Positions 19,471 through 58,620 of a stretch of 64,000 nt of DNA are shown here, in pieces. Each line of letters begins with the position of its first letter. The stretch's first letter is position 1. Where the stretch lies: positions 92,318,001-92,382,000 of the forward strand of contig OX597820.1 of NCBI GenBank assembly GCA_951406725.2, written 5' to 3'. This DNA is from Octopus vulgaris. Lineage: Eukaryota. Both the position numbers and the translations under genes were made by a program. A model generated the notes under the pieces. It saw only the letters and a program-made list of their open reading frames with translations. It did not search any database and was not told the DNA's origin.

Positions 19471-20886
19471 TTTTTTTTTTTTTTTTACTTCTTTCAAATT
19501 TGCTTCCATTTCTTGCCGAGTGTCTTCCCGACTCCTAGGGCAAAGAAACTCATAGTATACATTGGTAGGCCATCAAACCAAACTCAGTAGTTCGTTAATT
19601 TTTTTTTTTTTTTTTTTTTTAAAGTTAAATTAAAATACATGAGCAGCAACAGTTCTCACATCGACAATGCTCTTCTCAATACGTGTGATGTACCAGTTAA
19701 GACAATCTTTTGCACTTCTTGCAGGGATGGTAAGCCAGGTATCATTCTCATATAATTTTCGGTTCCCTTCTTGATCATTCCTAGTTCTCCTACGATCACT
19801 GGTATTGTAACCGCCTTGAGATGCCACATTTTCTCAATTTCAATGAGTAGGTCTTTATATTTTCTGAGCTTGTCAAACTCTTTCGCTGAGATATTATGAT
19901 CACAGGGGATGCTCATGTCGATCAATAAGCAAACTTTATTGTTTTGGTCTTTCACAACAATATCTGGTTTATTGGCCTTGATGGTTCGGTCTGTATGTAC
20001 TGGAAAGTCCCACAGAATGGTTACATTTTCTCCTTCAGTTACAGCCTCAGGGTGGTGATTATACCACTTGTCGGCAGTTTTGATATTGTAATGCCGACTT
20101 ATTAGCCAGTGGAGATATTGGCCAACTCTGTCATGTCTTAATTTATACTCCAACTGGTGCTAAGACTTTACATCCAGAGATTAGGTGGTCCACTGTTTCA
20201 ATCATGTCGTTGCAGAATCGGCATTTTGGGTCTGCTCCATTTTTCATCACATTAGCCTGGTAGTTCCGGGTTAATAGGGTTTGATCTTGAGCAGCCAGGA
20301 TGAAACCTTCGCTCTCTGCTTTTAGCCCTGAGCTCCGTAGCCACTGATGGGTTTGCTTCTGGTCAACATCAGCTTGTTTGCTGCGGGTCACATATTTGCC
20401 GTGCAGAGGTTTCTCCTCCCACCTATCAGCCAATTGCTCGTGCGCTTTTTTCATTGCCATCATTTTCACCTTCTTTGCAACAATAGTTGCCGTACTTCCC
20501 TCGGGTTGTTCAGTTTGGGTATCCTGCACGAGATCAATAGCAAATATTTTGCTTTCCTTTATTATAGAATGAAGCTTCTTTCGTCTCTCGTGATTTTCCA
20601 CGAGCTTTAGCATCCAGTCATTCGATATTTCGAGATATTTGGCCAGTCCAATTGTGGTTGTTTTGTAAGCAAGTTCAAATTGGATCAGGCCTCGACCTCC
20701 TTGGGCTCTGGGAAGGTAAAGGCGATCTACGTCTGCCTTTGGGTGGTGCATCCTATTACAACTCAGCAGCTTGCGTATTTTCCTATCTATATTCTTTACT
20801 TCACTTATATTCCAGTTCAACACATTGTAGCTATAAGTAACAACTGGAACTGCTAAGGAATTTATAGCTAACACCTTGTTACGTGC
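19471..20886 (-). mobile_element. R4/Dong-type RLE non-LTR retrotransposon, 5'-truncated, well preserved
   Basis: ORFs 20143-20874 (AINSLAVPV, HPKADVDRLYLPRAQGGRGL, CRFC..ETVDHLISGC) and 19656-20153 (RHDRV, KPDIVV, LIDMSIP, K..KY), joined by one frameshift near 20150. A-tail at 19471-19486; (TAA)n on both flanks. Confidence 0.93.
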
Positions 20887-20887
20887 A

Positions 20888-20972
<85 letters not shown>

Positions 20973-27349: not shown

Positions 27350-28874
27350 GAATGTTAAATGTTCATTCTGATTGAACTAGAACTTTCATGCATTAAATTC
27401 TGCAATCTTCAGGTTCATGTAGTAGTGGTGACAGTCATGCTTCACAATTTTTGACTGTAGCGAGATAATTGAATCTGTGCCTTAAATACAGCTGTGTAGG
27501 CTCCAGATTGCTAGGTTTTGCAAACTGTATTCTGACCAATCAGTGTGTAGTATCACTCAATTACTTAAGCTGATTGGTTGGTTTGAGCTGATTGGTTTAG
27601 GCGTCACGCTTTGTTGGAAATGTCAAGAGTCCTGTATCTTAACCCTGGCCGAGGCAGCAATTGTTGGGCTACTTTTAGAAATGTTGTAAATAGCCTTTGT
27701 CAGAGATTTTTATATTTTTATATTTCAATTGTCATCATCATCATTGTCAGCACCTTAATTATTGTTGCTAATGGTGATGGTGGTGGCAATAGAACTTTTA
27801 ACCCTAAATAAGATAATTTTCTTGCTATCTAAGTATTATTATTATTGTTTATTTAGCTTGGGTTCGAATTTATCAATAAAATTATTTTCTCTGATTTTCC
27901 TCTCGATTTCACTTCGGCTGTGTAATTTGTAGAATGGAAATATTATATATATTTTCCGACCACATGTTGCTAGGTGGTTACTCAAAGGTATCTGACGGAC
28001 CTCTGGGTCTCTAATCTGTTGTCGGTGTACCCGTGAGCGTTCTGATAGTGCATTTCCGGTCTGACCTACATATATTTCTTCACAATTTGGGCATTTGATG
28101 CAGTAAATTAAATTTCTGCTTTTGCAGTTCATATTCGCGTTTGTGAATATTTTCCCGGTTTTTGTGTTTATATATGTATGTATGAATTGGCATGTGCCAC
28201 ATCGGCTAACATGGCATTTAGATACAGTGAATGTTTGGTCTTTGTTGCTAAGGTCAAATTTTGCCTTTGTTAGTAATTTTTTCAAGTTTTCAGGCTGTCT
28301 TTTACTAAGAACTATAGCTCGATCCGTGATTATGTCTTTTAATTCATTACTTTGGGCAATGATTGGTAGGTTTGCTTTGGCAATGTTGAAGATATTCTGG
28401 TGACATGGGTTGTGTGTCACTATGAATTGTATGACTTGTTCTTGTTTTCCTCTTCCTTGGGTTGTCCTAAGTTATTGTATGAGTATTTTTATAACTCGCT
28501 GTATGCCATTTTCTATAAGTAGAGATGGGTATTTTCGTTTGAGCAAAAATTCTCTTAGTTCTGTTAGGCGTTTGTTCCTGATATTTGCATCTTCTATAAT
28601 GGTACAAAGTCTTCTGGCTAGGCAGTATGGGATGTTGCGTTTTGTATGTGGTGGAGGGCACGACTTAAAATTTAGGTATTGATGTGTGTCTGTGTGTTTA
28701 TAGTATATATCTGTGGTGATGGTGGTGTCTTTTTTAATTACCACTATATCTAGGAATCGTAATTTAGTACTACTCATCTCCTTTGTAAATTGGAGAGATG
28801 GGTGTAGGTTGTTCAGGAGGATATTGAACTCTTCCAGAGTATTTAGAGATTCTGTGCAGATTATGAAGCAGTCG

Positions 28875-28876
<2 letters not shown>
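27350..28876 (-). mobile_element. Penelope-like retroelement, 5'-truncated (RT C-terminus + GIY-YIG endonuclease + 3' pLTR)
   Basis: [42 protein letters not shown] (28472-28876) and C...RCGTC..NCKSRNLIYCIKCPNCEEIYVGQTG..LSER...H (27842-28420). Frameshift between the two parts. Confidence 0.93.
27373..27417 (-). ncRNA. Minimal type I hammerhead ribozyme in the Penelope 3' region
   Basis: Minus strand: UGAAC CUGAAGA u-UGCA-gaauuuaa-UGCA-u GAA AG-uu-CU A^GUUCA. Canonical core, about 425 nt downstream of the GIY-YIG stop. Confidence 0.8.
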
Positions 28877-28935
<59 letters not shown>

Positions 28936-28996
28936 CATATGTGTATGTATGTTTGTATGTATATATAATATACATATACATATATACGCACGCCTG

Positions 28997-29033
<37 letters not shown>

Positions 29034-29779
29034 TCAGAGACACACATATCGACATAAAAGTAGTTTTGTTTCCCTCTCTCTCTCTATGTATATAAATGTG
29101 TGTGTACAGAGAGAGAGAGACAAAAAGAGAGATAGATGGATGGGTGGATAGATAGATTGATAATAGATTGATCGATACATATACATATATATGAATATAA
29201 ATACATACATATACATATGTATTATCATTATTATTATTATAACTATTATTATTATCATTATTAAAACATTATTTAAAACACCTTGTTTCGGCACCATGCG
29301 ACTTAAAGGTTCGAGAAATCTCGGTCGTTGGGCTCAGTTATGAACCACAATAGAGGCGATGCAGGAAGTCCTGACTAGCTACCATTTACCGAGCCGTCAT
29401 TGGTCAAGTGAGTCACCTGGTGCTATTAGATGAGAGGTGAACTTTCAAGAGACTCTAGATGCATTAAAAAGAACTATTTGAACAGCGTAGCTGGATGGGA
29501 AGCTGAAAGCGCTTACGGTTGTCCGGTCTTCGAAGAGATTGCGGGCGATGGTGTTTGTGTGTGCTCTCAAGGCGTATGAGTACGTAGATGTGTGCGTCTG
29601 ATATCTATGCGCATGCGTATGTGTTGGAGTGTGCGTGCCTGTGTATTAGCTGGCGTGCAGAAGAAAGCTGATGGCATCATCTCGTTGGTGCATTCGTTTG
29701 TGTTTGCTAGGTTGTGTGTACGTATGGATGTTTCATATATATATATATATTTATATATATATTCTTTTATTCTTTAACC

Positions 29780-30060
29780 GGTTTCAGTCGCTTCAGTGCG
29801 GCCATGATGGAGCTCTGCCTTTAGTCGAACGAATCAACCCCAAAAATTATACTTTGTAAGCCGTTTGCCGAACCGCTAATTTACGGGGGCCTAAATATAC
29901 CAGCACACACATACACACACACCTATATACGACGTGCTTCTTTCAGTTTCCGTCTACCAAATCCACTCACAAGTAGAAGACATTTGCCTAAGGTATCACG
30001 CAGTGGGACTGAACTCGGAACCATGTGGTTGGGAAGCAAGCTTCTTACCACACAGCCATA
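29780..30060 (-). mobile_element. SINE family A copy
   Basis: tttgccgaaccgctaa, ctttcagtttccgtctaccaaatccactcacaa and gcagtgggactgaactcggaaccatgtggtt..cttaccacacagcca. Confidence 0.88.
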
Positions 30061-30152
30061 TCTGAAGTCTTACATGTCCCTCCTGAGCCATAAGAACATA
30101 AGCCCACTTTCTCGGATTCTGTGACATGTATACTTATACATACATACATAAA

Positions 30153-30231
<79 letters not shown>

Positions 30232-30458
30232 TTCGTTACTTAGAAAATTGTTTATGTGAATACGTGTGTTGCAACAAATTGTAATTCGCGTGAATTCGCG
30301 TATTGCATCAAATAATGTAAATAATGTACATAATTCCTCATCTCTTGAATATAAAACTGTCCTCTTTTTTATAATTGTAGATTCTTCAGTCTTGGGGTGA
30401 ACCACGCTAATAACTTTTGAATGAAAATAACCCATCTACACATATTAGGACATATATA

Positions 30459-30668
30459 ACGGGAAGCTTTATGAAAATAAACAAAAGACGAAGGCAGGTG
30501 GAATACAAACAAACAATTGTATTAGTATGGCGCTCAGGAATATAAATAAAACAAGTCTTTTACGTTTCGAGCCTACGCTCTTCAACAGAAAGATACACAG
30601 AAAAGAAACACGGAGAGAAACAAGGAAGAAGAAAAATGCGTGCAGAAGCTAGCGAATCAACATGGCGA
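30459..30668 (-). mobile_element. 210-bp hammerhead-bearing insertion with 13-bp target-site duplication
   Basis: taggacatatata at both 30446-30458 and 30669-30681. No ORF; internal hammerhead motif. Confidence 0.85.
30556..30593 (-). ncRNA. Minimal hammerhead-like motif (CUGUUGA core variant, palindromic stem III)
   Basis: Minus strand: UCUUU CUGUUGA a GAGC-guag-GCUC GAA ACGU A^AAAGA. Confidence 0.7.
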
Positions 30669-32112
30669 TAGGACATATATAGTTATATACTGTGACAGTA
30701 GTTTTCAATAGACACTCACCTGCCGATGAAACAATATAAAAGAATGTGAAGTAAAACTGAATGATGGGTGAATAGTCAGCTGCGTATTTTTCTGTAATAT
30801 CTTTAGTATTAAAGTTGAATAGAGTAAATAGTTTTAATTACATAAAAGAGAGCAATAAGTATTAGTTTATTAATATAATTATGCTAACGGATTAAGTAAA
30901 CAAGAGGAGACTAAATATATGTGTGAATGTATATACATATGATTTGTTGTAAGTCGGTGATGTTTCTAACTCAGCTGGCGTTAATCAAAATCTGTTCAAT
31001 AATACTAGAAGAACGTTCCTAGCAGAGAATATTTGCCTGCGATAAAACTGTCTTGCCATAGAAAGAAAAGATAGATGACGATTACTGACGTGTCCAAATC
31101 AAAAAATTCCTTCCTGATTACAGAAAGAAAACAAAATATCGATCCATTATCCATAGCATATTACTGGTTGCGAATGCATATACTGTCGCAGACCATGGTC
31201 TCTGCAGGAGCCCTGATGCTTTCTGAGTGCATTGGACTCAGAGGTGGATGAAAAGAAAGTCGCGTTTACCTTTAAGGTAGTTCTTGATAAACTAGGCGTT
31301 CGGAAATTCCATGCTTATAAGCGTAGTTAGCCCATAATATATCCCCTTCGGATCGAAGATGACGATGCTGGAAAGTATAAACTCTCCAAGAGAACATAAT
31401 CGTCCATTGCGTATGTAACTTGTCCAAAGTGAATCGTAGATCATTCATGTTAAATATGCTTGTAGCCTTAGTGGTGGTCGAGTATGGCGGCCATCTGGGC
31501 CCATGAAATACGTCTACAGTATGTGTAGTACGGCAGTAGTATACAATGATTATACGGTCCCCTGATTAGTTATGTCCTCATCAGCAGTCCTCATTTTTGA
31601 AAGTACAGTTATCAAACGATTCCCGGCTGAAGATGTTTTCGGATATTAAATGACCCACAAATATAGAAGAAGATTATCCCCGAATTCGGTAGCGAGCCAT
31701 CAGAAGCCAGCAAGGAATCTTGTTCAATCTATAAAGATATCTATCACCAAAACCCATCATGTGTATTTACATAATGCATATAAATTAAGTTTGACTGGGT
31801 TTTAATGAATTCGATCTCTTTTAGAATGTTTGCAGTCATAGTGTAATAATCTCTAACATTTGCGAGTTTATAATTCGAGTCCCAAGACTCACCAGGCCAC
31901 TGATATTGAACATAGTATATGAAAAATTATTATCCTACATATTCTATATACTCTATAATAATATTATTGATGTAGAATATAACTGTCTGTAAATTTTATA
32001 TTGGCGTGCCGCTTTGAAAAGTATACAGTGACGCGCGCGCGTATATGCTCGCATAAAATATATAATACAGTGTGTATCTATGTATATATGTGTGTACAAA
32101 CGCGCGCATGCA

Positions 32113-54581: not shown

Positions 54582-58620
<4,039 letters not shown>

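What the first reader, a model, noticed from the sequence alone, without database searches (positions are those of the whole stretch)
30446..30681. 210-bp hammerhead-carrying insertion with a perfect 13-bp target-site duplication
Seen: taggacatatata on both sides; no pol III boxes, TIRs, poly(A) or ORF; internal motif UCUUU-CUGUUGA-A-GAGC(GUAG)GCUC-GAA-ACGU-A-AAAGA. Inference: the TSD indicates the unit was inserted by itself, probably recently and by target-primed reverse transcription. The A6U change in the normally conserved CUGA could be a copy-specific mutation or a lineage-specific core variant.
Basis: partly seen in the sequence, partly recalled or inferred. Interest (0 to 1): 0.72.

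Follow-up and report, generated by a model that had tools for sequence, protein, structure and literature searches.

The report
Penelope end-repeat with altered hammerhead core
This 210-base insertion is one of thousands of lone end-repeats of a recently spreading Penelope-type jumping gene, likely copied into TA-rich DNA by that gene's enzyme; the whole lineage carries a hammerhead ribozyme motif with one changed core base (A6U) whose cutting is untested, and many copies stop at exactly this length, possibly because the RNA starts there.

Summary
Observation confirmed. The 13-bp duplication is exact, and contigs from one study show the empty site (exactly 223 bp skipped). The unit is not an independent element. 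It is the pseudo-LTR of a 4.5-kb Penelope-like retrotransposon (RT, CxxxxCxxC linker, GIY-YIG; Neptune-like) and lies on both sides of intact ORFs. Copies share a fixed 3' end beside TATATAT, which matches the element's own internal junction. The window copy's end is nevertheless a strong hot spot: 373 copies stop there, against 23 and 6 at identical GAT sites 5 and 25 nt further on. This likely marks run-off at a transcription start (untested). U6 is not copy-specific: at least 13,700 exact copies in several sister families carry it while position 7 varies freely. The predicted cleavage site lies mid-unit and defines neither end. The scan noted A6U Penelope hammerheads before in two other genomes. 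The key paper on such variants (Lunse 2017) could not be read. Verdict: a known kind of element with a variant core; moderate interest.

The parts
30446..30458 (.). Target-site duplication, left copy (13 bp, TAGGACATATATA)
   Evidence: single copy in the empty allele
30452..30458 (-). 7-nt match (TATATAT on the element strand) between the target and the element's own sequence just 3' of the upstream pLTR; inferred priming homology
   Evidence: BLAST of a full element extends to 30452; internal junction GCTTCCCGT-TATATAT(T/C) in 23 of 30 ORF-5' loci
30459..30668 (-). Solo pseudo-LTR (pLTR) of a Penelope-like element, 210 bp; RNA sense = minus strand; fixed 3' end at 30459
30556..30593 (-). Minimal type I hammerhead motif: stem I 30593-89/30560-56 (5 bp), core CUGUUGA 30588-82 (U6 at 30585), extra A 30581, stem II 30580-69, GAA 30568-66, palindromic ACGU 30565-62, predicted cleavage 3' of A17 (30561)
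   Evidence: architecture compared with PMC4209133
30661..30667 (-). CGCCATG motif at the 5' boundary, kept in sister families whose upstream sequence differs; candidate promoter/initiator element (YY1-like resemblance is recalled, untested)
30669..30681 (.). Target-site duplication, right copy; its first T also fits the element (1-nt microhomology at the 5' junction)

Best explanation
The 210 bp is a lone pseudo-LTR of a recently active Penelope-like retrotransposon, likely inserted by the element's own RT/GIY-YIG protein through target-primed reverse transcription, and it carries a lineage-wide A6U hammerhead motif whose self-cleavage is untested. Shown: family membership, parent structure (pLTR - 5' region - single RT/Cys-linker/GIY-YIG ORF - 3' UTR - pLTR, 4.46-4.58 kb repeat), same sense for hammerhead and ORF, fixed 3' end, TA-rich targets, TSD and empty site, 5'-end hot spot, fixed U6. 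Inferred: (1) the endonuclease nicks a TATA-containing site; (2) the nicked end ATATATA-3' pairs with UAUAUAU just behind the pLTR in the RNA and primes cDNA there; (3) cDNA of about 210 nt is common because the transcript likely starts 1-7 nt upstream of the CGCCATG motif in the upstream pLTR, so RT that starts internally behind that pLTR runs off the RNA's 5' end (this step about 50%); (4) a second nick 13 bp away gives the TSD; (5) the hammerhead would cleave slowly, only as a dimer through ACGU or with protein help, and does not make the ends.
For: Family: 40 of 40 scored matches (1,373 candidates) are 98-100% identical over nearly the whole unit; the top 30 differ by 1.2% on average. Parent: copies extend by up to 3.3 kb into frames matching RVT_1 (E 1e-7) and weakly GIY-YIG (E 0.002, below cut-off). 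The unit lies directly upstream of the ORF's 5' region in 23 of 30 loci. 34 of 88 scored RT matches have stop-free frames of 1,000 aa or more (counted by eye). 10 of 20 stretches chosen for long frames or paired units have a whole pLTR on both sides of the ORF, with 0-2 substitutions between the pair. Seven intact ORFs differ by 0.14-0.61%. Ends: 72 of 90 copies picked only by a hammerhead 30-mer share the modal 3' end with the 7-nt TA match. 5' ends: 21 short of the boundary, 31 within -7..+8 (14 within 1 nt), 7 at +9..+100, 31 beyond. Genome-wide exact counts at GAT+ATATA junctions: 373 at +1, 23 at +6, 6 at +26, with 1,915 reading through, about 16%, 1.2% and 0.3% stopping. Core: U6 in 30 of 30, 2,971 CUGUUGA, 10,748 CUGU[ACG]GA, against 697 non-U6 (first 100 rows: 74 C, 18 A, 8 G). 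Literature: RT starts internally behind the pLTR and AT-rich DNA is nicked (PMC11167929); the Penelope transcript starts inside the upstream pLTR (PMC2377424); a TA bias is linked to the Cys linker (PMC8557442).
Against: No transcription start could be mapped, because only contigs were available. The boundary also sits in a predicted stem that could stall RT, though the fold is no more stable than shuffles (z +0.2 to -1.3 in 7 copies). The intact-ORF copies belong to a sister subfamily with pLTRs about 90-93% identical to the window unit; the closest long copies of the window's own lineage that I translated (L061, L063 and others, 96.7-98.1%) are frameshifted or truncated. In the anole element, RT starts at a site not homologous to the cut DNA and hammerhead mutants do not impair insertion in vitro (PMC11167929). 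A natural A6C hammerhead cleaves at under 0.1 per min (PMC3088659), so U6 may mean a weak or dead ribozyme. The hot-spot patterns differ in length and subfamily coverage, so the percentages are approximate. The empty site rests on one study, whose flanks differ from the window by about 3.4%, so polymorphism within the host species is not shown.
Confidence: 0.8

Rival explanations
1. Ordinary 5' truncation from the 3'-terminal pLTR: RT starts at the end of a full-length transcript and often stalls at an RNA stem near the boundary, where AT microhomology with the target fixes the junction. No transcription start is involved.
For: Ends are ragged on both sides of the boundary. A stem with pairing probabilities near 0.9 spans the boundary in 7 of 7 copies folded. 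16 of 59 ends below +100 finish in AT.
Against: Microhomology alone fails: the same GAT at +6 and +26 is used 14 and about 50 times less often. The fold is not significant. In sister families with different upstream sequence, 5 of 20 U6 loci (judged by eye) also end 0-15 nt upstream of CGCCATG, while 4 read through and 11 are shorter. Beyond the boundary the stopping rate falls to about 0.2% per nt.
Confidence: 0.35
2. The short unit has become a self-renewing non-autonomous element: solo pLTRs carry their own promoter, are transcribed into the flanking (TA)n, and are re-copied in trans by the sister subfamily's protein, like a pol II SINE.
For: In the window's lineage short forms dominate. 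26 of 27 top-scoring copies with 0-1 substitutions stop by +8; in the unbiased set 7 of 7 copies with up to 3 substitutions are short, against 13 of 45 with 7 or more (Fisher p 0.0006). I saw no intact ORF for this lineage. All sequences needed for Penelope transcription in carcass lie in its 3' pLTR (PMC2377424).
Against: Two long copies (L035, L038) differ from the window unit by 1 substitution, and L035 runs 3.3 kb into the ORF, so an ORF-linked source existed. I searched for intact ORFs once, and only 88 of 17,462 candidates were scored.
Confidence: 0.2
3. A retrozyme-type element: a small RNA cut out and circularised by its hammerhead, replicated as a circle and inserted as a monomer.
For: Type I hammerhead, small size, no ORF; animal retrozymes derive from PLE pLTRs and occur as dispersed monomers (bioRxiv 10.64898/2026.07.22.740005).
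Against: The predicted cleavage site is after nt 108 of 210, at neither end. Ends are not circularly permuted, since the 3' end is fixed. BLAST of the 30 closest loci found no head-to-tail repeat of the unit. Copies continue into the ORF.
Confidence: 0.04
4. Solo pLTR left by recombination between the two pLTRs of a full-length insertion, as for LTR elements.
For: The paired pLTRs are nearly identical. Recombination or deletion was proposed for solo pLTRs without TSDs in a rotifer (PMC3846280).
Against: The 5' end of the product would be that of the upstream repeat, which ran well past the 210-bp boundary in most of the full-length copies seen, so this would not give a peak at +1.
Confidence: 0.06

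Closest known systems
Minimal type I hammerheads in pLTRs of metazoan Penelope-like elements (Cervera and De la Pena 2014, PMC4209133; parts 1-2 of 4 and supplement 2 part 2 read)
   Same: Short stem I, no stem III but a palindromic 15.2-16.2 pair, extra base between 9 and 10.1, G10.1-C11.1, U-rich upstream; mostly single motifs from truncated PLEs; dimer predicted.
   Different: Core CUGUNGA instead of CUGANGA. All 44 rows of their alignment that I saw have A6, but their descriptor was built on the conserved core, so this is biased. Stem II is only 4 bp.
Neptune/Nematis-type EN+ PLEs (as described in PMC8557442 and PMC3846280; passages read)
   Same: Single ORF with DKG motif, RT (YIDD), CX4CX2C linker and C-terminal GIY-YIG; partial-tandem pLTRs; microsatellite (TA)n bias; TSDs often hidden in the microsatellite.
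   Different: Clade not tested with a tree. The element's own pLTR/5' junction matches the target over 7 nt, and the 5' ends peak sharply at the pLTR boundary; I did not see either feature described in the passages read.
Poseidon of Anolis (PAc; Frangieh et al. 2024, PMC11167929; parts 1-2 of 4 read)
   Same: pLTR-ORF-pLTR, hammerhead in the ORF sense, AT-rich targets, RT starting at a fixed internal site behind the pLTR, hammerhead not defining the ends.
   Different: There the start site is 111-118 nt inside the ORF and not homologous to the target; here the end lies about 670 nt upstream of the Met (L199) at a TA-homologous site, and no 'tail' class was evident.
Non-LTR animal retrozymes (bioRxiv 10.64898/2026.07.22.740005; part 1 of 5 and passages read)
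   Same: Short, non-coding, pLTR-related, type I hammerhead.
   Different: Defined by tandem units; here none was seen, and the ends are those of TPRT products of a coding element.
PLE-associated small hammerhead variants (Lunse, Weinberg, Breaker 2017; seen only as a reference and a review sentence in PMC6765202)
   Same: Shrunken stem III, PLE association, dimer cleavage.
   Different: Cannot tell: the paper is not held, and it may already include U6 variants.

Membership tests
EN+ Penelope-like element (parent) | Single ORF with RT and C-terminal GIY-YIG endonuclease | tested here: met
   L199 ORF of 1,079 aa from Met: RVT_1 E 1.4e-7 above cut-off; GIY-YIG E 0.0065 below cut-off but IIYC...LYIGQTGR motif present; homologues at 38-58% identity nearly all share two further Pfam domains, most also RVT_1 and some GIY-YIG
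EN+ Penelope-like element (parent) | Direct pLTRs flanking the ORF (partial tandem) | tested here: met
   10 of 20 selected stretches with two whole units 4,462-4,575 bp apart; 2 more with a partial upstream unit
EN+ Penelope-like element (parent) | Hammerhead motif in the pLTR, ORF sense | tested here: met
EN+ Penelope-like element (parent) | Short TSD, variable 5' truncation, fixed 3' end | tested here: met
   clear non-simple TSDs of 13-15 bp in L001, L013, L014, L025; most are unresolvable in (TA)n
EN+ Penelope-like element (parent) | Intron in the 5' region (seen in some PLEs) | tested here: inconclusive
   No joints listed in 4 possible-RNA contig sets laid on L199:1040-2400; contigs cannot show absence
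Neptune/Nematis clade | CX2-5CxxC linker between RT and EN | tested here: met
   CSRPRCR(T/I)C in 13 of the 14 printed frames that reach the YIG motif
Neptune/Nematis clade | RT phylogeny groups with named Neptune or Nematis references | not tested
   No labelled reference sequences were on hand
Minimal type I hammerhead ribozyme | Stems I and II, G12-A13-A14, A15.1-U16.1, H17, palindromic stem III region | tested here: met
   a domain-swapped dimer model scores -14.7 kcal/mol against -7.8 for one constrained monomer, so no net gain is predicted, and the monomer MFE is an alternative hairpin (-10.2)
Minimal type I hammerhead ribozyme | Conserved core CUGANGA (A6) | tested here: not met
   U6 in at least 13,700 exact copies; no Rfam match at gathering score. 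It looks like a hammerhead variant, not a canonical member
Minimal type I hammerhead ribozyme | Self-cleavage 3' of H17 | not testable with these tools
   Needs a bench assay or raw reads; only contigs were available
Non-LTR retrozyme | Tandem hammerhead units or circular RNA with ends set by cleavage | tested here: not met
   Cleavage site mid-unit; no tandem unit in the 30 closest loci; circles not testable
SINE | Pol III A/B boxes and 3' tail | tested here: not met
   (box consensus recalled); no tRNA scan run

The most novel reading that the evidence does not exclude
Solo pLTRs are a programmed product of Penelope retrotransposition: transcription starts at the CGCCATG boundary, RT primes internally where the RNA's UAUAUAU pairs with the nicked (TA)n target, and run-off yields a promoter-carrying 210-nt module that can be re-transcribed and re-copied as a pol II, SINE-like lineage. 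The hammerhead it carries is a working U6 variant kept by selection through several families and more than 13,700 copies, invisible to CUGANGA searches.
Probability: 0.25. Interest if true: 0.65.

Novelty: new variant of a known kind. Interest (0 to 1): 0.4.

Why it matters
How pLTRs are regenerated and what PLE hammerheads do are open questions (PMC2377424, PMC8557442, passages). This family is young, has intact ORFs, thousands of readable junctions, a 7-nt RNA-target match and a sharp length class, so it makes both questions testable. A core change fixed in more than 13,700 copies means either that hammerhead descriptors miss a very large natural class, or that the motif is kept for something other than fast cleavage. 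The single locus itself is an ordinary transposon insertion.

Tried and rejected
Rfam scan of the window: no match at gathering score. MFE folding does not recover the hammerhead fold (z -0.4 and +1.1), as expected without stem III, so it is not evidence either way. Other copies in the window: none; the weak hits are purine-rich chance matches. Expression: no RNA holder listed; four contig sets guessed to be RNA cover the pLTR and 5' region but cannot show starts, ends or strand, and gave no splice joint. A 3' splice site reading of the boundary (CAG|AT) was considered and set aside: copies ending at +1 continue into target DNA, not into a shared exon. RT stalling at a hairpin: not significant, kept as a rival. 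The 5'-end offsets were wrong (landmark error) and were redone; L118 is placed at -3 there but reads as +1 by eye, and values above +100 are capped by the stretch length. Lunse et al. 2017 is not held; passages or sections of four other papers did not give its variant list. Paper searches for A6U or CUGUNGA-type cores, octopus plus Penelope, solo pLTR and Neptune targeting listed nothing describing this variant or the hot spot; only listings and named passages were seen. Supplement 1 of PMC4209133 and bioRxiv supplements could not be seen and may bear on the novelty of U6. The scan's look-up by sequence returned nothing.

Full report
Observation. The finding is in the sequence as written. TAGGACATATATA flanks 210 bp at 30446-30458 and 30669-30681, and it occurs nowhere else in the window. 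The minus strand carries a 38-nt minimal hammerhead motif at 30593-30556 with core CUGUUGA, an extra A before a 4-bp stem II, a palindromic ACGU in place of stem III, and a predicted cut after unit nt 108. Rfam does not detect it. The duplication is a real TSD. A contig of run X15 joins 30445 to 30669 with 13 ambiguous letters, X16 (same study) does so weakly, and X17 holds the filled right junction. The empty contigs differ from the window's flank by 20 substitutions in 582 bases plus small gaps, so the insertion post-dates that split; polymorphism within the host was not shown. The host is a 2.8-Gb animal genome, probably an octopus (recalled resemblance of its repeats; not tested).

Family. 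All 40 scored matches are 98-100% identical over nearly the full unit. In the 30 fetched, the left end (RNA 3' end) is the same in every copy and abuts a TA-ending flank, mostly (TA)n. Several run past the right end into shared sequence. A pattern spanning that end has 49 exact copies, whose extensions stop at ragged points, three of them beyond 1.5 kb. Longer stretches show RT and GIY-YIG frames on the hammerhead strand. The unit also stands directly upstream of the ORF's 5' region in 23 of 30 loci, joined by TATATAT(T/C). Full elements read pLTR - 5' region - ORF - 3' UTR - pLTR with a 4.46-4.58 kb period and 0-2 substitutions between paired pLTRs; seven intact ORFs differ by 0.14-0.61%. [quoted passage not shown] The intact copies belong to a sister subfamily (pLTR about 90-93% to the window unit). 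The window's own lineage has ORF-linked copies within one substitution (L035, L038), but those translated are broken.

Ends. In 90 copies chosen only by a hammerhead 30-mer (the first 90 of 2,971), 72 share the modal 3' end with a 7-nt TA match to the element's internal junction; the window copy has the same match at 30452-30458. 5' ends fall 21 short of the boundary, 31 within -7..+8, 7 at +9..+100 and 31 beyond. Controlling for microhomology, exact genome-wide junction counts at GAT followed by ATATA are 373 at +1, 23 at +6 and 6 at +26, with 1,915 copies reading through +26, about 16%, 1.2% and 0.3% (patterns differ, so approximate). The boundary motif CGCCATG recurs 64-79 nt upstream of the core in sister families with different upstream sequence, and several of their copies end just upstream of it. 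A stem spans the boundary but is not more stable than shuffles.

Core variant. U6 is invariant in the 30 closest copies. It is present in 2,971 exact CUGUUGA copies (a lower bound) and 10,748 CUGU[ACG]GA copies with the same stem II, against 697 with another base at 6, mostly C. Position 7, which is free in hammerheads, takes all four bases among families while U6 and the rest of the searched pattern stay. That fits selection on a variant core, but the pattern itself fixes the other positions and shared ancestry can explain part of it. More distant PLE-like motifs in the same loci keep A6 (CUGAAGA, CUGAGGA, CCGACGA). Published minimal PLE hammerheads that I could see all have A6 (44 rows), and a natural A6C motif cleaves slowly (PMC3088659 section 8).

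Mechanism. Most likely the element's endonuclease nicks TA-rich DNA, the free end pairs with UAUAUAU behind the pLTR in the RNA, RT copies towards the RNA's 5' end, and a second nick 13 bp away leaves the TSD. Internal initiation behind the pLTR is shown for the anole Poseidon, and a transcript start inside the upstream pLTR for Drosophila Penelope. Together they predict a short run-off product, which is my reading of the 210-bp class (about even odds against RT stalling). The hammerhead makes neither end. Short forms are enriched in the window's lineage, which leaves open a non-autonomous spread of the short unit.

Comparison and novelty. It works like, and passes the structural tests for, a solo pLTR of an EN+ PLE. 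It fails the canonical hammerhead core test at A6 and the retrozyme and SINE tests. PLE hammerheads, solo pLTRs and TA targeting are in print, and recently active PLE families are reported for an octopus (PMC13282606, passages, where 'hammerhead' and 'ribozyme' do not occur). I did not find the U6 core or the boundary hot spot in the searches named under Tried and rejected, but the most relevant paper (Lunse 2017) was unavailable, and this scan noted A6U PLE hammerheads in two other genomes (unchecked notes). Papers seen: PMC11167929 parts 1-2 of 4; PMC4209133 parts 1-2 of 4 and supplement 2 part 2; bioRxiv 10.64898/2026.07.22.740005 part 1 of 5 and passages; PMC6765202 passages and section 11 part 2; PMC3088659 passages and section 8; passages only of PMC8557442, PMC3846280, PMC2377424, PMC13282606, PMC11014351, PMC10085705, PMC6155905. 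Verdict: new variant of a known kind, interest 0.4.

Noticed in passing
window 27842-29083, minus strand: Decayed 3' part (RT thumb and GIY-YIG) of a second, different Penelope-like family, about 30% identical in protein to the parent described here; a 775-aa frame of what looks like the same family sits in L062:4454-6778 as an insertion with 506-bp repeats.
   Followed up: partly
window 19656-20889 (minus), 55946-56578 (plus) and 57920-58423 (minus): Frames that look like fragments of non-LTR retrotransposon proteins (resemblance recalled, no family scan).
   Followed up: no
window 30303-30438: The insertion sits next to or inside older repeats: contig depth is very high at 30303-30370 and raised at 30371-30438 in all four runs.
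   Followed up: no
window 29800-30070: Two fragments resembling common tRNA-derived SINEs just upstream of the site (resemblance recalled).
   Followed up: no
window 31228: Other genomes carry 18 extra bases here (X15, X16, X17).
   Followed up: no
L237/L238 (G000:C1:1878304-1878477), L083, L061:8616-8776, L117 left flank: pLTR copies of this and sister families often lie next to each other, some inverted, as expected if they insert into each other's TA-rich flanks.
   Followed up: no
L120:783, L179:843, L215:3484 and L130:840: Other hammerhead-like motifs with A6 or variant cores (CCGACGA, CUGAAGA, CUGAGGA, CUGCGGA) in more distant repeats.
   Followed up: no
L199:1452-2123: The parent has a long T-rich 5' region (about 670 nt) between the upstream pLTR and the Met, and its ORF runs on into a low-complexity pyrimidine-rich 3' region of variable length.
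   Followed up: partly
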